From Escherichia phage ECO340P2: 64,000 bases of DNA. Shown piece by piece: positions 6,096 to 52,127 of the stretch (the stretch's first letter is position 1; every line of letters starts with the position of its first letter). The notes under the pieces are model-generated. The model had not been told where the DNA came from, did not search any database, and saw nothing but the letters and a program-made list of their open reading frames with translations. The DNA is taken from the sequence record OP172792, one strand, 5' to 3'. Position numbers and translations under genes: made by a program.

Positions 6096-6265
6096 AAATA
6101 TTACGCGTGAATATTGAAACCGCTTGGTGCGGATGTAATGAGGTTGTGGATATTGAAATTGAAGATGATATGTCTAAAGAGGATATAGAAGATCTTGCAC
6201 ACGAAACCTTTCAGGACTATTGTAGCTATGGGTTCCATATTTTAGAGGAGGAAGAAGATGTATAA
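6092..6265 (+). CDS. Small acidic hypothetical protein (57 aa, not in ORF track)
   Basis: ATG 6092 preceded by GAGGAGGAAGG; read by hand to stop at 6263-6265; very acidic. Confidence 0.3.
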   Translation: MKILRVNIETAWCGCNEVVDIEIEDDMSKEDIEDLAHETFQDYCSYGFHILEEEEDV

Positions 6266-6656
6266 TCCAACAGGTATTCTTTTAAAACTCACAGTAACAG
6301 ATCCTACTCTTTTCACCAAGTTAGTCAGTGGTGAAGTCTATGAAGTAATGAAAGATGACGACGGTTGGTGTTATCTTTGTGGCTACTACCTCTGTGATGC
6401 AGAAGAGTTAGAATCCATTACAACTAAAGGTTTTTATGAAGAACCAGGCTTCCGTGTGGAAACTACACAGAAACCTGATACCATTACGTTGACTCGACAG
6501 GAACTGATCACAATCATTGAAGATGCTTTTATTGATGGTTGGAATACACAAGATAATGATTGGGGTGGACCTGAAGCTTTTCTAGAACATCATAAAGCTT
6601 ACGGAGAATTTTGTGAAACCACTGTAGCTCTTGATAATCTGAAGGAGGGTTTGTAA
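6258..6656 (+). CDS. Acidic hypothetical protein
   Basis: ORF track; GAGGAGGAAGAAG RBS; strongly D/E-rich. Confidence 0.5.
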   Translation: MYNPTGILLKLTVTDPTLFTKLVSGEVYEVMKDDDGWCYLCGYYLCDAEELESITTKGFYEEPGFRVETTQKPDTITLTRQELITIIEDAFIDGWNTQDNDWGGPEAFLEHHKAYGEFCETTVALDNLKEGL

Positions 6657-7219
6657 TGGGTTGTTTTAGCTTTTTGTGTAAGGAATCGGGCAAAGCTGCC
6701 CTTTCTACTTCTTTCGACGGATCGCCTTGCTATCTCTTTCTTTTGAAAGATGGTGTTGTTATTGAAGAGATGTATGGCAACTACGATAGTTATGGTTGTG
6801 TTTTCTCTGGAAAGGAGGACGAAAATGGCGTTCGTGAACGGTTTGATTGGGTTATGGATTGGAGTAAGGTTTGTGATTTGATGCATTCCTCAAATCCAAG
6901 GGACGGTATCGCTATGGTGCTGGAAGAGTACTTTACAGGTGAAATCCCTACAGAACAATCTGACAGAGATCCTAACCAAGGTTGGGGTGATGGTGAAGAA
7001 GATCCAGATTGTTTTTTCAGCACAGAAAAGAATAAGTTTAAACGTGTTGACAACCCTTATCACAAAGTGCATAATACTCTCATTGAAACAGAAGATGACA
7101 AGATGGAAATTGAAGAAGATGATCCTCTTGTAACACTTCCTATAAGCGAGTTACAAAAGATTACTAAAGAAGCTTACGATTTGGGCTTCAAAATTGGTAG
7201 AGGAGGTATGCGTGTTTAG
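6656..7219 (+). CDS. Hypothetical protein with acidic C-terminal half
   Basis: ORF track; GGAGGG RBS; several Cys pairs; no recognisable family. Confidence 0.5.
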   Translation: MGCFSFLCKESGKAALSTSFDGSPCYLFLLKDGVVIEEMYGNYDSYGCVFSGKEDENGVRERFDWVMDWSKVCDLMHSSNPRDGIAMVLEEYFTGEIPTEQSDRDPNQGWGDGEEDPDCFFSTEKNKFKRVDNPYHKVHNTLIETEDDKMEIEEDDPLVTLPISELQKITKEAYDLGFKIGRGGMRV

Positions 7220-47394: not shown

Positions 47395-47420
47395 GAAAAA
47401 ACCCCGCCGAAGCGAGGTAT
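47395..47420 (-). terminator. Rho-independent terminator immediately after tape measure gene
   Basis: Minus strand: CCUCGC-UUCG-GCGGGG followed by UUUUUUU. Confidence 0.8.
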
Positions 47421-47424
47421 TTTA

Positions 47425-49413
47425 TTAACCACCAGTGTTAGATTGTCCACTTAGAGTTGAAAGAGACAAACGTTGGAAAATACTATTTCCGCTATTTTGA
47501 ATTCTTGCATCAAGAATATTTCCAAACTCTGAAGAAGGGCTGATCGTAACTTTGATAAGATCACTTGGTATTGCTACCGTATTCTCAACAACAGGTTGAT
47601 TACGAGCCAAACTTACGTTAGGTGTATAGGCTGATTCACGTAAATCTTCAAGAGGATTACCAAATCCAAAAGCACGTGTCCTTGTTTGTTCTCCTCTCCA
47701 CATACGACCAATATCTTGTGTATCAATACCTGTTAAATTGTACAACCAATCTGCTACAGGATTGCTGTCTCCACTTTGCGTTGCCTCGTATGCTTTTTGT
47801 GCCATAGATTTATTAGGATCTGTGTTATCTCCGAATGTATCTGGGAATGTTTCTTTAAGCCAATTGGTAAAAGATCCGAAACCATCTCCCAATTCTTTAG
47901 CAAAACCTCCTAATTGAACTGTTGTCTTACCGAGTTCTTCACCTAAATCTTTGGCAAACTGATCTAGCACTTTAACATTATCCAACCAAGAATCATCTTT
48001 AGGTAAGGCTTTCACAAAACCCTCTAAGAAGTGGTTCTGCATACCTTGACCTACAAGCTGAACTGTTGCAGCAAAACGAGTAAACTCTTTAGAAGCATCT
48101 ATTTGTTCTTGAGTTAATGTTGCACCTGTTCTTTGAAGCATTTTCAATACTTCATTATACCCTTCGCCGTTTTTACTAAACATACGTTGGTAGTGCATAA
48201 GGTCATCACCAAGGTTTTCAAGAAGTCGCCCGATTTGAGCAGAGTTCATACCTCGACGTTCACCTTCATTAACAGTAGCCTGAATAAAAGCTAAAGGATC
48301 GTTCTGTAAAGGTTTAAGCTGTTCTGGATTCCATCCAAACAAGTTCATAATGTCATTTATGCCATTATCACCGCCTTTCCACTTCCCTTCTTTCTCATTC
48401 CATTTTGAGGCTAAAACTGTATTACCAAGACGTTCACGAACGTCTTTAATATTATCTATTGACTTAATAATATTTGCAGAGTCTACACCGTTCTGTTCAC
48501 CCCAAGCTGTCATTGCCAAAATAGCGTTGGCGTTTGTCTGAACGTTTTCAGCACCACGACTTACAAGTTTAATTCTTTCGTTAGTATTCATCAACGTGTT
48601 ACCAACTACAGAACCACCTGCAAACAGCCCAGCACCTATTAAAGAGGATGCAATCATGCGTGGATTAAGACCTGCTGCACCTTCTTTTAATTGTCCATAT
48701 CGACGATCACGATCACGTTTTTGTTGAGCTAATTCACGCTTACGGTTGCGTTCTATATCTCTAAGTTCACGATTTCGCATACGTATACGCATTTTAGCTT
48801 CTGCTTCTAGCTCTCTACGAATACGGCGACGACCGCGAACCTCGTCTTCTATTTCAGCATTCTTTTCACGATGAGATCTGCGTAAGGCATCTAACTGGTG
48901 AGCAAGAGCTTGGTTCATACGTTGAAGAGTTATTTCACCCTTTTTGTATTGCTCTACAGCTTTACCCATAACGTCTCTAGCTTCTTGCATAGCGCCAGGA
49001 CTAGCTTTACTAAATGCTCTTGCTCGATAGTTAAAGTTCTGCAAACGAAGATTACCTAAATCTTCCCTACGTGCTGCTGCTTTAGCTTCGCGTTCAGCAG
49101 CTTTACGAGCTTTTTCTTCTTCTCTTCCTTGCGGGGTTTTAGGAGTTCTAGGTCTACCAGATCCGCCTACAGGAGCACCCGCTCCAGCGGGAGTAGGTGC
49201 TCGCATAGGTTTTTGACTTTGAGTTTGAGCTTTCTTAAGTTCACGCTCAATCTCTTTCATTTGTTGTCTAAACTTGGTCATGTTCATAGTGGGTTGCATT
49301 TTATTTGCAAACTTCTGAACACTCAACACGGCATCTTTTGCTTCCTTGAGACTGTTCTTGTCCACCTTAAACGTAACCACGTTACTAATTTTGGAGGCGT
49401 TAATTTCTAACAA
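47425..49413 (-). CDS. Tail tape measure protein
   Basis: 662 aa, long charged helical segments (KARKAAEREAKAAARRED), immediately after the frameshifted chaperone genes. Confidence 0.65.
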   Translation of the reverse strand: MLEINASKISNVVTFKVDKNSLKEAKDAVLSVQKFANKMQPTMNMTKFRQQMKEIERELKKAQTQSQKPMRAPTPAGAGAPVGGSGRPRTPKTPQGREEEKARKAAEREAKAAARREDLGNLRLQNFNYRARAFSKASPGAMQEARDVMGKAVEQYKKGEITLQRMNQALAHQLDALRRSHREKNAEIEDEVRGRRRIRRELEAEAKMRIRMRNRELRDIERNRKRELAQQKRDRDRRYGQLKEGAAGLNPRMIASSLIGAGLFAGGSVVGNTLMNTNERIKLVSRGAENVQTNANAILAMTAWGEQNGVDSANIIKSIDNIKDVRERLGNTVLASKWNEKEGKWKGGDNGINDIMNLFGWNPEQLKPLQNDPLAFIQATVNEGERRGMNSAQIGRLLENLGDDLMHYQRMFSKNGEGYNEVLKMLQRTGATLTQEQIDASKEFTRFAATVQLVGQGMQNHFLEGFVKALPKDDSWLDNVKVLDQFAKDLGEELGKTTVQLGGFAKELGDGFGSFTNWLKETFPDTFGDNTDPNKSMAQKAYEATQSGDSNPVADWLYNLTGIDTQDIGRMWRGEQTRTRAFGFGNPLEDLRESAYTPNVSLARNQPVVENTVAIPSDLIKVTISPSSEFGNILDARIQNSGNSIFQRLSLSTLSGQSNTGG

Positions 49414-49433
49414 AGTATGTTCCTCGTGTTGGA

Positions 49434-50182
49434 TTAAACAAGTTTCTTAAACAAATCTGACATTTTATTTGTCTGGTTTTGATGTTTTCTCTTTATTGAA
49501 GTGTCTTTAACATACATGGCTTCAACATACTCTTCGTATGTTAAATACTCATATAGTTTTAAAAGATAATCTACACCGTAGTTATCCAATGTTTTCAGTG
49601 TTTCCGAGGTATCTTTAACGACTTTGCAAAGAATAACCTCATACCACTTCAAAGTAAGGGTTTTCGTTGCTATGTCGATAGCATGTTCAATCGCAGGTGT
49701 TAATTTGCTGCTAAACTCGTCATCGCCTGAAGCTGTGTGAACAGTTTTCCGAAACCTCGTTTGAAAAAAGGGCCGTAGTTTACCTCCAGAACTTTAGCAG
49801 TAAGATCTAACACTAGTTCTGGGTGAGCCATAAATAATTCATCAAAATTTTCTGCAACGTTATAACCGTCTTGAGTATAAACCTCATCTAAAATTTTACG
49901 CAAAAAGACAGTTAAATTCTTTTCTTCCAAACCTGCAAAAAGTTGGATCAATGCCATAGCAATACGTGACTCAAGGTCTTCGTCTGCGGACATTGTTGCT
50001 GTGCTATACATAGTCATAGGAACAACCAGAACACTACCTAATTCTGGAATCCTGTCAAACACTTTAGATGGACTCCACTTCATAATACGGAAAGTAACAG
50101 ATCTGTTTCCATCTAACGGAATCTCAACTACTTCTTCTGGTCGAGCATATTTTTGAATTGTGTTATCTTGTTCTTGTGACAT
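49434..50182 (-). CDS. Tail assembly chaperone, long form made by programmed -1 frameshift (gpGT / E+E'-like)
   Basis: The -1 frame is open from the slippery site (49763-49769) to the stop at 49434; the downstream ORF has no ATG start (track start is TTG), consistent with expression by frameshift only. Confidence 0.5.
49700..50182 (-). CDS. Tail assembly chaperone, short form (gpG / P2 E-like)
   Basis: Sits between tail tube and tape measure; slippery heptamer T_TTT_TTC lies 20 codons before its stop. Confidence 0.55.
   Translation of the reverse strand: MSQEQDNTIQKYARPEEVVEIPLDGNRSVTFRIMKWSPSKVFDRIPELGSVLVVPMTMYSTATMSADEDLESRIAMALIQLFAGLEEKNLTVFLRKILDEVYTQDGYNVAENFDELFMAHPELVLDLTAKVLEVNYGPFFKRGFGKLFTQLQAMTSLAAN
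49763..49769 (-). promoter_or_regulatory. -1 ribosomal frameshift slippery heptamer T_TTT_TTC
   Basis: Zero frame reads CCT TTT TTC (P F F); X_XXY_YYZ pattern in the correct register. Confidence 0.5.
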
Positions 50183-50202
50183 ATTTTCCTCTCTAATGAT
50201 AA

Positions 50203-50220
50203 AAAGGGCATTTCTGCCCT
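50203..50220 (-). terminator. Terminator after tail tube gene
   Basis: AGGGCA-TTTC-TGCCCT flanked by T-runs on both strands. Confidence 0.65.
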
Positions 50221-50227
50221 TTATTTA

Positions 50228-50707
50228 TTATTGAATTGTCAGAGCAGAGATTGAGTTAAGGGTGCTCAAACCTACACCAACTTCATTACGCAGAAGGCTT
50301 GCATCTTTAAGACCAATAACCCATTGGTTCTCTGTAATCATTTCGCCAATAGTATCTTCAGGCTGACTTTGAATCCATCCAATCGTGCTAATGTAATAGC
50401 CACGTGGGTCTTCTAAATAAACACTGAACGCTACTTGACGAGTAGAATACATTGTTTGTGCATATGTTGCAAGTACTTCGTTAGCTGGAGATGTGCGTTG
50501 CAAAGACATTGTGAGTGTTCCCAAACGGTTACGACTCAAAGCTAGTGAAACGTCGCCATCAGTCCCTGCATAAGGGTTGATAATATCGTTAGATTTAGCA
50601 ATAACGATTTTAGTATCAGCCGCAAAACCCCACGGTTCCCAACCACCTAATGAAAGGATAACTTGAGATGGGTCGTAGGCCATTACGCCAGTAAGCATTT
50701 TATCCAT
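50228..50707 (-). CDS. Tail tube protein
   Basis: 159 aa directly downstream of the sheath gene and followed by a terminator. Confidence 0.6.
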   Translation of the reverse strand: MDKMLTGVMAYDPSQVILSLGGWEPWGFAADTKIVIAKSNDIINPYAGTDGDVSLALSRNRLGTLTMSLQRTSPANEVLATYAQTMYSTRQVAFSVYLEDPRGYYISTIGWIQSQPEDTIGEMITENQWVIGLKDASLLRNEVGVGLSTLNSISALTIQ

Positions 50708-50753: not shown

Positions 50754-52127
50754 TTAGTTTGCAGTACGGTTAGTCAGGACGTTGACCTGAACTTTAACGT
50801 AATGGAAGAAGCCAGCGTAAACATATTCAATCTTCATCCCATCTACCAGACGAGCATTGATTTGCGCATCGGTCATATCAGCACGAGAAGGAATATAAAC
50901 AATAGGTTTCAGATCGACACGCAAACCAGTCTCTTCAGAAGTAACAACTTCATTAGCGATGGAACCGTTGAGGATACCTACTTGGATCGGGTTAGCCAGA
51001 ACAGCTTGTCGAATCAAAGCCAGACCGTTTGAAGTAGCACGAACACCACCACCCAGCATAGACTGTTGTTTAAACAGTGTAAACAGTGATTCTTCTGTGC
51101 GAGCTTTAAACCACAAAGCATGAACAACATAGTCAACAAAGAAACCGCTAACCATCAATCCATCACGATAGAACAGAGTTCCATGCTCTTTACGATAGAT
51201 GTTGCCGTTCTGTTGAACAATATTGTTTTCCGAAGTCTGATCCAGTTTCTCGATCTCTACACCTACCAGTGTTTTACCGTGAAGAGTAGTTAAACCAGGT
51301 TGACGAGAACAGATTGCACCAACAACTGCTGCTTCTGGGAATACAGAATCTGCATCGGTCATCCACAAAGCAAAGCAAGTGTTATTATAACCGAGGTCAT
51401 TCAGTCGTTCCAGAACGTTATCTTCTGCTTTCGTTTTAATTCCAGGTTCAGAGCTAGAGAAGAAGTAAACTTTATCATTCTCTTCTACCCATGCAGCCAA
51501 AGCTAGAACATCTTCTGTTTCATGGGAATCTGAAAGGGTCCAGAACCAGCTACTATCGATATCATGCAGAGCAGCAATATCTTCCGTAATAGCATTAGCA
51601 TAGACAGTTTCTTGAGTGAAACCTGTGCTGTCAATAGAACCAAACTTACCTTCTACTGGAGTGAAAGTCATTGCAGCGCCGTTGTTAGCTACTGTAAACA
51701 GTGGGCCATAAACAAGATCTGCATTGATCATTTCAGTCAGACCAACTACAATCTCTTGTGCAGTTGCAGTGTCATCAGCAATGAATTTAAATTCTTTTTT
51801 CTTGGTACCATTTTTGATGGTAATTGTGTAAGTTGCACTATCTTCTACGATTGGAGTTAGAGTAAAGTTTGTAACTTCACGCTTACCAACCATGACTTGA
51901 TCTGGTGGGAACAAACCGTTAAACAGTTTGACTGCCATAATATACGCTGGATCATTTAATCCATAACCTGCTTCCAAAAGTGCATCGGAAGAAGAGTAAT
52001 ATTGAATCGCTTCGCCAGTTACGTTCTGACCTGTAAGGATCAGGGGAATATCGAACTGGGTTTCACGAATTGATGTAGCACCATACAGTAAAGTTACGGT
52101 TGCTACCTTTTCACGAAAAGTTGCCAT
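50754..52127 (-). CDS. Contractile tail sheath protein
   Basis: 457 aa immediately upstream of tube gene, after the head-tail joining genes. Confidence 0.6.
   Translation of the reverse strand: MATFREKVATVTLLYGATSIRETQFDIPLILTGQNVTGEAIQYYSSSDALLEAGYGLNDPAYIMAVKLFNGLFPPDQVMVGKREVTNFTLTPIVEDSATYTITIKNGTKKKEFKFIADDTATAQEIVVGLTEMINADLVYGPLFTVANNGAAMTFTPVEGKFGSIDSTGFTQETVYANAITEDIAALHDIDSSWFWTLSDSHETEDVLALAAWVEENDKVYFFSSSEPGIKTKAEDNVLERLNDLGYNNTCFALWMTDADSVFPEAAVVGAICSRQPGLTTLHGKTLVGVEIEKLDQTSENNIVQQNGNIYRKEHGTLFYRDGLMVSGFFVDYVVHALWFKARTEESLFTLFKQQSMLGGGVRATSNGLALIRQAVLANPIQVGILNGSIANEVVTSEETGLRVDLKPIVYIPSRADMTDAQINARLVDGMKIEYVYAGFFHYVKVQVNVLTNRTAN

What the first reader, a model, noticed from the sequence alone, without database searches (positions are those of the whole stretch)
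49434..50182. Programmed -1 frameshift in the tail assembly chaperone gene
Slippery heptamer T_TTT_TTC (plus 49763-49769, minus strand) sits 20 codons before the stop of the chaperone gene. The -1 frame is open from there through a downstream ORF that has no ATG of its own, ending just before the tape measure gene. This is the conserved G/GT (P2 E/E') arrangement, predicting an extended product of about 250 aa.
Basis: partly seen in the sequence, partly recalled or inferred. Interest (0 to 1): 0.4.

Follow-up and report, generated by a model that had tools for sequence, protein, structure and literature searches.

The report
Tail chaperone G/GT frameshift, unannotated
This phAPEC8-like E. coli phage almost certainly makes its long tail-assembly chaperone by a -1 ribosomal slip on T_TTT_TTC, the ordinary lambda G/GT or P2 E/E' trick, which none of the 21 database records I inspected for this phage group annotates.

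Summary
The window is a Phapecoctavirus (phAPEC8-like) genome. On the minus strand the order is sheath, tube, chaperone G (50182..49700, Pfam Phage_TAC_15), a -1 ORF (to 49434), then tape measure (49413..47425). T_TTT_TTC (49769..49763) is in the correct phase, 20 codons before the G stop. The -1 frame is open for 119 codons and ends 20 nt before the tape measure start. The predicted fusion is 249 aa.

The heptamer alone is not significant: 16 copies in the window against 31 expected. Comparison carries the case.
- The in-phase heptamer and an 79-97-codon -1 extension occur in all 54 relatives that keep the Phe-Phe site.
- Slip-site codons are frozen (TTT 26/26, TTC 26/26), while other invariant Phe codons vary.
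- The -1 ORF shows a coding pattern and has no conserved start or Shine-Dalgarno (SD) sequence.
- Rheinheimera phage Barba18A replaced the T-run with lambda's G_GGA_AAG and kept the architecture.

No downstream RNA structure was found. An SD-like GGAGG lies 13 nt upstream. None of 21 inspected records annotates the fusion. A 2025 paper proposes the same frameshift in sister families.

Verdict: real, mechanistically ordinary, a new member of a known kind.

The parts
50754..52127 (-). Tail sheath gene (457 aa), upstream context
   Evidence: phrog_205 tail sheath 2.9e-100 and PF11863. RefSeq phAPEC8 annotates it as 'tail sheath'.
50228..50707 (-). Tail tube / virion structural protein gene (159 aa)
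   Evidence: PF11681 KPP10_Orf10 and phrog_280. The orthologue phi92 gp131 is the tail tube protein (PMC13450770).
50203..50222 (-). Terminator-like hairpin between the tube gene and the chaperone gene
   Evidence: Stem of 8 pairs followed by a T-run. Annotated as a putative terminator in phAPEC8.
49700..50182 (-). Gene G: short tail assembly chaperone, 160 aa, zero-frame product
   Evidence: ORF. PF21822 Phage_TAC_15 1.3e-23 and phrog_3840 2.8e-55. SD GAGAGGA at 50193..50187.
49783..49787 (-). Internal SD-like GGAGG, 13 nt upstream of the heptamer; candidate frameshift stimulator (inferred)
   Evidence: Sequence. An SD-like element lies 12-14 nt upstream in 19 of 29 distinct contexts. It also encodes the conserved residues L-E-V, so RNA-level selection is not shown.
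49766..49772 (-). Overlapping in-phase heptamer C_CCT_TTT (Stephanstirmvirinae only)
   Evidence: A slip here gives the same peptide as a slip on T_TTT_TTC.
49763..49769 (-). Slippery heptamer T_TTT_TTC, the proposed site of the -1 shift
   Evidence: Phase is correct. Present in all 54 relatives that keep the Phe-Phe site. Codons TTT and TTC are each fixed 26/26, while other invariant Phe columns vary.
49434..49763 (-). T segment: -1 frame extension, 109 codons plus stop. It has a linker, a conserved domain of about 65 aa and a basic tail.
   Evidence: Translation. Alignment and codon-position entropy 1.09/0.90/1.63. phrog_16039 9.9e-45, function unknown. No conserved start or SD.
49434..50182 (-). 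Predicted GT fusion, 249 aa: join(50182..49763, 49763..49434) on the minus strand, with base 49763 read twice
   Evidence: Built. tblastn with the fusion finds both halves as two adjacent pieces, consistent with two reading frames. In 135 phage records one such place covers at least 80% of the fusion.
47425..49413 (-). Tape measure protein gene (662 aa, TTG start), downstream context
   Evidence: phrog_16051 at E = 0. RefSeq annotation. SD GAGGA at 49425..49421.
47401..47418 (-). Terminator-like hairpin after the tape measure gene
   Evidence: Annotated as a putative terminator in phAPEC8.

Best explanation
Ribosomes translate the chaperone gene G (50182..49700). Most of them terminate at TAA 49702..49700 and give the 160-aa chaperone G.

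A minority slip when tRNA-Phe occupies both the P site (UUU) and the A site (UUC) on U_UUU_UUC (49769..49763). Both tRNAs re-pair one base back on UUU UUU. Decoding then continues in the -1 frame from CAA at 49763 to TAA at 49436..49434. The product is a 249-aa GT protein made of G residues 1-140 plus a 109-aa T segment.

By analogy with lambda G/GT and P2 E/E+E', the G part would coat the tape measure protein encoded immediately downstream. The T domain would recruit the tube protein, and neither protein would end up in the virion.

What is shown here: the signal, its phase, its conservation and the coding nature of the -1 ORF. What is inferred: the slip itself, its efficiency (probably a few per cent) and the protein functions. 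No downstream RNA structure is needed. An SD-like GGAGG 13 nt upstream may help, as it does in dnaX.
For: 1. Anatomy. The in-phase heptamer lies inside a 30-codon overlap. The -1 frame is open for 119 codons, after 10 stops in the preceding 90 codons, and ends 20 nt before the tape measure start. The +1 frame is closed.

2. Identity. G matches PF21822 Phage_TAC_15 (1.3e-23) and phrog_3840 (2.8e-55), with tube upstream and tape measure downstream.

3. Conservation. The in-phase T_TTT_TTC and a -1 extension of 79-97 codons occur in 12 other GenBank loci from Stephanstirmvirinae and Vequintavirinae, with G identity down to about 25%. They also occur in 39 of 39 IMG/VR loci, one with its extension cut by the contig end, and in Klebsiella phage FKP3 and Aeromonas phage phiA019.

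4. Synonymous sites are frozen. The slip-site Phe codons are TTT 26/26 and TTC 26/26. Two other invariant Phe columns use TTC/TTT at 18/8 and 20/6. The preceding codon is CCT, TGT or AGT: three different amino acids, always ending in T.

5. The T segment is a real protein. It aligns across both subfamilies, and the third codon position is the most variable in the -1 frame (1.09/0.90/1.63). In rV5 a ttc-to-tta change is F-to-L in the zero frame but Arg-to-Arg in the -1 frame, and the -1 motif RFR is kept.

6. No independent start. No conserved ATG, GTG or TTG with an SD exists. In L007, L008 and L027 the first possible start lies at T codon 64-84, inside or after the conserved domain.

7. Slip-site turnover. 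Rheinheimera phage Barba18A lost the Phe-Phe site and carries an in-phase G_GGA_AAG, lambda's heptamer, a few codons downstream. It keeps a homologous T domain in the -1 frame.

8. Published measurements. U_UU.U_UU.C and C_CC.U_UU.U belong to the efficient H_HH.U_UU.Y class in E. coli. U_UU.U_UU.C gives more than 0.1% shifting without any stimulator (PMC4066793). P2 uses an in-phase T_TTT_TTG for E+E'.
Against: - There is no direct evidence that the 249-aa product exists. No fused protein appears among 5.8 billion predicted proteins, though gene callers cannot produce one.
- No downstream stimulatory structure was found. The 103 nt after the heptamer fold no better than shuffles (z = -0.26), and there is no conserved or covarying helix in either subfamily.
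- The IMG/VR loci were retrieved with a peptide pattern that required Phe-Phe. That set is therefore biased towards keeping the site, although not towards the codon choice.
- The Phe-Phe residues are also invariant in protein G, so part of the nucleotide conservation reflects protein constraint.
- The T domain has no detectable similarity to any characterised T domain.
- A weak in-phase A_AAA tetramer lies 5 codons downstream (gga aaa, my reading). It could contribute a minor second shift site in Stephanstirmvirinae.
Confidence: 0.9

Rival explanations
1. Transcriptional slippage. RNA polymerase adds one extra U while copying the T6 run. A fraction of mRNAs then carry G and T in a single frame, and standard translation produces GT.
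For: The conserved element is a homopolymer run, and one inserted U would give the same -1 frame product. [quoted passage not shown] I could not read that paper.
Against: The run is only 6 T. Bacterial transcriptional slippage is described for runs of about 9 A or T (PMC5009743). The run is fixed at exactly T6 followed by C, and always in the X_XXY_YYZ phase. Phase matters to a ribosome but not to a polymerase. Barba18A replaced the run with G_GGA_AAG, a ribosomal slip site that is not a homopolymer.
Confidence: 0.05
2. Independent gene. The downstream ORF is translated on its own from TTG 49652 as a 72-aa protein, as RefSeq annotates it (phAPEC8 G377_gp105).
For: Gene callers and RefSeq annotate a separate 'hypothetical protein' here. 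18 clusters of 64-85-aa proteins exist in the protein collection.
Against: No SD precedes the TTG. The codon encodes a conserved Leu of the domain rather than a start. Start positions differ in every relative, and in some the first possible start lies after most of the conserved domain. Protein conservation in the -1 frame begins right after the heptamer, with RFR, upstream of any start. This model gives no reason for the frozen synonymous sites at the heptamer.
Confidence: 0.03
3. No recoding. The heptamer and the open -1 frame are coincidental, and the intergenic stretch is non-coding.
For: TTTTTTC is common in this AT-rich genome and even under-represented relative to shuffles. The window holds 70 in-phase X_XXY_YYZ heptamers with Y = A or T in ORFs of at least 100 aa.
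Against: A 119-codon open frame follows a stretch with about 0.11 stops per codon. The -1 ORF shows a coding-type substitution pattern and is conserved as protein in phages whose G proteins share only about 25-35% identity. The arrangement holds in every relative examined.
Confidence: 0.01

Closest known systems
Phage P2 E / E+E' tail chaperone frameshift
   Same: Both are myoviruses. The chaperone gene lies between the tube gene and the tape measure gene. The -1 shift occurs on an in-phase T6 run: T_TTT_TTG in P2, annotated as a joined CDS in RefSeq. The extension ends at the start of the tape measure gene.
   Different: The last base is C rather than G. The slip lies 20 codons before the G stop here, against 6 in P2. 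G and GT are larger: 160 and 249 aa, against 91 and 142 aa implied by the P2 CDS coordinates. No sequence similarity to P2 E was detected; the window's G matches a different Pfam family, PF21822.
Phage lambda G / GT frameshift (Levin 1993; Xu, Hendrix and Duda 2004, 2013, 2014)
   Same: The logic is the same: an abundant G and a rare GT from one mRNA. In lambda, G binds the tape measure protein and T binds the tube protein, and neither is in the virion (PMC5009743). The relative Barba18A uses lambda's exact heptamer G_GGA_AAG.
   Different: Lambda is a siphovirus with a different heptamer in this position. No sequence or fold similarity of the T domain was detected. The functions are inferred here, not shown.
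Proposed -1 frameshift in the tail chaperone of Vandenendeviridae (Pakpunavirus Adele) and Andersonviridae (PMC12846349, Viruses 2025)
   Same: These clades have related virion modules. [quoted passage not shown] The window's tube protein matches the KPP10 family PF11681.
   Different: That paper analyses Vandenendeviridae and Andersonviridae. It names Vequintavirinae and Stephanstirmvirinae only as related clades and does not report the chaperone frameshift for them. tblastn did not link the chaperones across these groups.
E. coli dnaX -1 frameshift
   Same: A -1 shift on a homopolymeric heptamer with an SD-like sequence 10-14 nt upstream. Here GGAGG lies 13 nt upstream.
   Different: dnaX also has a strong downstream hairpin and shifts at about 50%, which is my own knowledge and was not checked here. 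No downstream structure exists here. The SD-like element is absent in about a third of the relatives.

Membership tests
G/GT-type tail assembly chaperone with programmed -1 frameshift (lambda G/GT, P2 E/E+E') | The gene pair lies between the major tail (tube) gene and the tape measure gene. | tested here: met
   Order on the minus strand is sheath, tube, G, T, tape measure.
G/GT-type tail assembly chaperone with programmed -1 frameshift (lambda G/GT, P2 E/E+E') | The upstream ORF is a tail assembly chaperone. | tested here: met
   PF21822 Phage_TAC_15 at 84.3 bits against a cut-off of 22, and phrog_3840 at 2.8e-55.
G/GT-type tail assembly chaperone with programmed -1 frameshift (lambda G/GT, P2 E/E+E') | The second ORF is in the -1 frame, overlaps the 3' end of G and has no initiation signals of its own. 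| tested here: met
   The overlap is 30 codons, the extension 87 codons past the G stop, and no conserved start or SD exists.
G/GT-type tail assembly chaperone with programmed -1 frameshift (lambda G/GT, P2 E/E+E') | A canonical X_XXY_YYZ slippery heptamer lies in the zero-frame phase inside the overlap. | tested here: met
   T_TTT_TTC at 49769..49763, plus C_CCT_TTT at 49772..49766. This motif class is efficient in E. coli (PMC4066793).
G/GT-type tail assembly chaperone with programmed -1 frameshift (lambda G/GT, P2 E/E+E') | The two-frame arrangement is conserved among divergent relatives. | tested here: met
   All relatives examined keep it: 54 carry the T-run site, and Barba18A carries a substituted G_GGA_AAG.
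G/GT-type tail assembly chaperone with programmed -1 frameshift (lambda G/GT, P2 E/E+E') | The fusion protein is made at a low fixed ratio to G and is required for tail assembly. | not testable with these tools
   This needs mass spectrometry, reporter assays and phage genetics.
G/GT-type tail assembly chaperone with programmed -1 frameshift (lambda G/GT, P2 E/E+E') | The T domain resembles a characterised T domain in sequence or fold. | tested here: inconclusive
   No Pfam or NCBIfam family matched, and the PHROG matches have unknown function. The T model has pLDDT of only 64, and the BFVD fold search gave nothing below E = 2.5. Such chaperones diverge strongly, so this says little against membership.
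dnaX-type stimulated -1 frameshift (upstream SD plus downstream hairpin) | An SD-like sequence lies about 10-14 nt 5' of the heptamer. | tested here: met
   GGAGG at 49787..49783, 13 nt upstream. It is conserved in only 19 of 29 distinct contexts and is confounded with the conserved L-E-V codons.
dnaX-type stimulated -1 frameshift (upstream SD plus downstream hairpin) | A stable stem-loop or pseudoknot lies 5-9 nt 3' of the heptamer. | tested here: not met
   z = -0.26 against shuffles. The consensus folds show no downstream helix with support. There was no Rfam match.
Programmed transcriptional slippage | A homopolymer run long enough for polymerase realignment, about 9 A or T in bacteria. 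| tested here: not met
   The run is exactly 6 T in all loci. The threshold comes from PMC5009743.

The most novel reading that the evidence does not exclude
The phase-locked T6C slip site may be one ancient recoding signal inherited by a whole supergroup of large lytic myoviruses: Stephanstirmvirinae, Vequintavirinae, Plateaulakevirus and, through the GTTTTT motif reported elsewhere, Andersonviridae and Vandenendeviridae. On this reading it works without any downstream RNA structure, and in many members it is helped by an internal Shine-Dalgarno-like sequence 12-14 nt upstream. It would then be an unusually deeply frozen slippery sequence and a natural case of SD-only stimulated -1 frameshifting. 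Barbavirus would be the one lineage that swapped it for G_GGA_AAG.
Probability: 0.35. Interest if true: 0.4.

Novelty: new member of a known kind. Interest (0 to 1): 0.25.

Why it matters
The main consequence is for annotation. The T ORF is called a separate 'hypothetical protein', or left blank, in all 21 related GenBank and RefSeq records I inspected. A tblastn search with the fusion finds related loci in 358 phage records, and many of these phages are phage-therapy candidates (Phapecoctavirus, Justusliebigvirus, rV5-like). They should carry a joined tail assembly chaperone CDS.

It also extends the G/GT rule to two more myovirus subfamilies and two further genera. It gives a clean natural example of slip-site replacement (T_TTT_TTC to G_GGA_AAG) with the architecture preserved. 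Finally, it offers an E. coli-based system for asking whether an upstream SD-like element alone can set a low frameshift ratio. It does not change the understanding of tail assembly.

Tried and rejected
- **Downstream stimulatory structure.** The 103 nt after the heptamer fold no better than shuffles (z = -0.26). RNAalifold on 10 Stephanstirmvirinae and 11 Vequintavirinae sequences gave no supported helix. The only pairing was the heptamer itself with a downstream GGAAAA, and that is absent in Vequintavirinae. Rfam gave only two sub-threshold sRNA matches elsewhere.
- **Structure prediction.** The GT fusion as a single sequence gave pLDDT 45 and is unusable. The T segment with 17 close homologues gave pLDDT 64, all helical. 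The BFVD fold search found nothing below E = 2.5.
- **Solved structures.** The G profile had only a marginal hit to 5ir0_A, 'Uncharacterized protein ORF19' (E = 0.031). I did not pursue it.
- **Annotated or natural in-frame fusions.** Protein searches with GT and with T alone returned only 158-175-aa G proteins and 64-85-aa T fragments.
- **Literature.** Five full-text searches found no report of this frameshift in phAPEC8, rV5, phi92, PVP-SE1, Vequintavirinae or Stephanstirmvirinae. Subscription journals are mostly not held, so an earlier report cannot be excluded. Vladimirov et al. 2022 on T4-like tail chaperones could not be read.
- **Reaching sister families by tblastn.** Searches from rV5 G and from phiA019 GT did not reach Felix O1 or Pakpunavirus chaperones.
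- **A second candidate in the window.** ORF 6258..6656 has G_GGT_TTG ahead of a long -1 ORF. That ORF is simply the next gene, with its own ATG at 6656.
- **The heptamer as stand-alone evidence.** Rejected, because it is not enriched in the window.

Full report
**What the window is.** The 1-kb stretch around the finding is 99.7-100% identical to many Phapecoctavirus genomes, including phAPEC8, Mt1B1_P17 and ESCO5 (subfamily Stephanstirmvirinae). These are E. coli myoviruses of about 150 kb. On the minus strand the gene order is as follows:
- tail sheath, 52127..50754
- tail tube, 50707..50228
- a terminator-like hairpin, 50222..50203
- a 160-aa ORF, 50182..49700
- a gap that RefSeq fills with a 72-aa 'hypothetical protein' starting at TTG 49652
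- the tape measure gene, 49413..47425, with a TTG start
- a second terminator-like hairpin, 47418..47401

The 160-aa protein is a tail assembly chaperone. It matches PF21822 Phage_TAC_15 at 1.3e-23 and phrog_3840 at 2.8e-55.

**Checking the observation.** The sequence shows ggc ccT TTT TTC aaa in the zero frame.
- TTTTTTC occupies 49769..49763 in the X_XXY_YYZ phase.
- 20 sense codons follow before TAA at 49702..49700.
- In the -1 frame there are 10 stops in the 90 codons upstream. A 119-codon open stretch then runs from 49793 to 49437.
- That stretch ends 20 nt before the tape measure start.
- The +1 frame closes after 3 codons.
- Joining G residues 1-140 to the 109 codons read from 49763 gives a 249-aa protein.

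Two details need adjusting. Two ATGs do occur late in the -1 ORF, and an overlapping C_CCT_TTT heptamer at 49772..49766 would give the same product. The heptamer alone proves nothing. TTTTTTC occurs 16 times in the window against 31 expected, and there are 70 in-phase X_XXY_YYZ heptamers with Y = A or T in the window's longer ORFs.

**Comparative evidence.** A tblastn search with the predicted fusion finds its two halves as two adjacent pieces, consistent with different frames. In 135 phage records one such place covers at least 80% of the fusion. I fetched 12 further loci spanning Phapecoctavirus, Justusliebigvirus (phi92), KP13-16, Vequintavirus (rV5), Henunavirus, Mydovirus, Seunavirus, Certrevirus, Avunavirus and unclassified Vequintavirinae. 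G-protein identity to the window falls to about 25%.
- Every locus has an in-phase T_TTT_TTC at the homologous N-Y-x-x-F-F site.
- Every locus has a -1 frame open 79-91 codons beyond the G stop, ending 11-79 nt before the tape measure start.
- Every locus has a closed +1 frame.
- The same holds for 39 of 39 IMG/VR loci, one with its extension cut by the contig end. These were retrieved with a peptide pattern that required Phe-Phe, which biases the set.
- It also holds for Klebsiella phage FKP3 and for Aeromonas phage phiA019 (Plateaulakevirus), which lies outside both subfamilies.

**Codon-level control.** Among 26 non-redundant sequences the two slip-site Phe codons are TTT 26/26 and TTC 26/26. 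Two other invariant Phe columns use TTC/TTT at 18/8 and 20/6, and invariant Pro, Val and Tyr columns also vary. The codon before the run is CCT (Pro), TGT (Cys) or AGT (Ser). The amino acid differs, yet the third base is always T. The nucleotide string is therefore conserved beyond what the protein requires.

**The -1 ORF encodes a protein and has no start of its own.** The translated -1 segments align across both subfamilies. Each has a near-invariant R-F-R just after the slip, a Gly/Ser/Pro-rich linker of variable length, a conserved domain of about 65 aa and a basic tail. Column entropy by codon position in the -1 frame is 1.09, 0.90 and 1.63, the signature of purifying selection on that frame. 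In rV5 a ttc-to-tta change is Phe-to-Leu in the zero frame but Arg-to-Arg in the -1 frame. This argues that the -1 frame is already being read immediately after the T-run. No start codon with an SD is conserved. In several loci the first ATG, GTG or TTG lies at T codon 64-84, too late to encode the conserved domain.

**Slip-site turnover.** Rheinheimera phage Barba18A has lost the Phe-Phe site. It carries an in-phase G_GGA_AAG a few codons downstream, followed by a homologous T domain in the -1 frame. That is lambda's own heptamer. Selection has evidently kept the ability to shift -1 at the end of G rather than a T-run as such. This favours ribosomal frameshifting over transcriptional slippage. 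The short run points the same way: it is 6 T, against about 9 needed in bacteria (PMC5009743). So does the strict phase of the run.

**Stimulators.** None is present.
- The 103 nt after the heptamer fold no better than shuffles (z = -0.26).
- Consensus folding in each subfamily finds no supported helix.
- Rfam has no match.
- Upstream, GGAGG at 49787..49783 lies 13 nt from the heptamer. An SD-like GGAGG, GAGGT or GGAG sits 12-14 nt upstream in 19 of 29 distinct contexts.

This resembles the dnaX upstream stimulator. The same bases encode the conserved L-E-V, however, and a third of the relatives lack the element. I count it as a candidate stimulator only. Published E. coli measurements place U_UU.U_UU.C and C_CC.U_UU.U in the efficient H_HH.U_UU.Y class, and U_UU.U_UU.C shifts measurably without any stimulator (PMC4066793). 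That fits a low, fixed G:GT ratio.

**Mechanism and function.** The most likely mechanism is tandem slippage of two tRNA-Phe on U_UUU_UUC in a small fraction of ribosomes, giving GT alongside abundant G. The functions are inferred from lambda, where G coats the tape measure protein, T recruits the tube protein, and both are absent from virions (PMC5009743). They were not tested here. The G-specific tail is long, 20 aa here and 30-34 aa in Vequintavirinae. The overlap is therefore a dual-coding stretch, which explains the conserved GGTTTCG block (G-F-G in one frame, R-F-R in the other).

**Comparison with what is known.** The P2 RefSeq record annotates E+E' as a joined CDS, and its slip site is an in-phase T_TTT_TTG. 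A 2025 paper proposes a conserved -1 frameshift with a GTTTTT motif in the tail chaperone of Vandenendeviridae and Andersonviridae. It notes that the downstream ORF is routinely mis-annotated (PMC12846349). It names Vequintavirinae and Stephanstirmvirinae as related clades but does not report the frameshift for them. I found no report for this group in the held literature. None of the 21 GenBank and RefSeq records inspected has a joined chaperone CDS. No fused protein exists in the large protein collection.

**Verdict.** It is a new member of a well-known kind. It is useful for correcting annotation across several hundred phage genomes and mildly interesting for the slip-site swap and the lack of a downstream stimulator. 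It would not surprise a specialist. Interest is 0.25.

Noticed in passing
window 50203..50222 and 47401..47418 (minus strand): Terminator-like hairpins bracket the chaperone and tape measure unit, one between the tube gene and G and one after the tape measure gene. The first would lower transcription of the chaperone and tape measure genes relative to sheath and tube, which would suit their lower stoichiometry.
   Followed up: partly
L058:1832-2470 (Rheinheimera phage Barba18A) and L011:2299-3177 (Pectobacterium phage DU_PP_IV): In Barba18A an HNH endonuclease gene on the opposite strand is inserted between the end of the T ORF and the tape measure gene. In DU_PP_IV two extra ORFs sit in the same place. 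This junction seems to tolerate insertions, possibly of mobile elements.
   Followed up: no
L006:1551-1919 (phage rV5, GenBank DQ832317, ORF 50): The original rV5 annotation starts ORF 50 at a CTG codon 3 nt before the slippery heptamer, in the -1 frame and overlapping ORF 51 by 109 nt. The annotators captured the whole open -1 frame without calling a frameshift.
   Followed up: partly
(public records, not the window): Several records labelled 'Campylobacter phage' (MG0656xx) match rV5-type E. coli phages at the chaperone locus; the best (C11) is 100% identical to rV5 G at the protein level. 'Acinetobacter phage vB_AbaM_ABPW7' is 100% identical to E. coli Phapecoctavirus over this 1 kb. The host labels may be wrong or the samples contaminated.
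   Followed up: no
window 63107..63673 (minus strand): A cluster of five tRNA genes: Met(CAT), Ile(GAT), Pro(TGG), Gln(TTG) and Gly(TCC). There is no tRNA-Phe in the window, so the slip would use the host tRNA-Phe. The phage tRNA-Pro(UGG) could read the CCU codon of the overlapping C_CCU_UUU heptamer.
   Followed up: no
window, both strands: TTTTTTC is under-represented in the window: 16 copies against 31 +/- 5.5 expected from dinucleotide-preserving shuffles. This is consistent with general avoidance of shift-prone runs.
   Followed up: no
window 49769..49744 (minus strand): In Stephanstirmvirinae the heptamer UUUUUC can pair with a conserved GGAAAA 13 nt downstream (6 pairs, no covariation). 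The same gga aaa forms a weak in-phase A_AAA tetramer that could be a minor second -1 shift site. Neither feature is present in Vequintavirinae.
   Followed up: partly
window 6258..7219 (plus strand): ORF 6258..6656 has an in-phase G_GGT_TTG ahead of a long -1 ORF. That ORF is simply the next gene, with its own ATG at 6656 overlapping the stop by one base. It is not a recoding candidate.
   Followed up: yes
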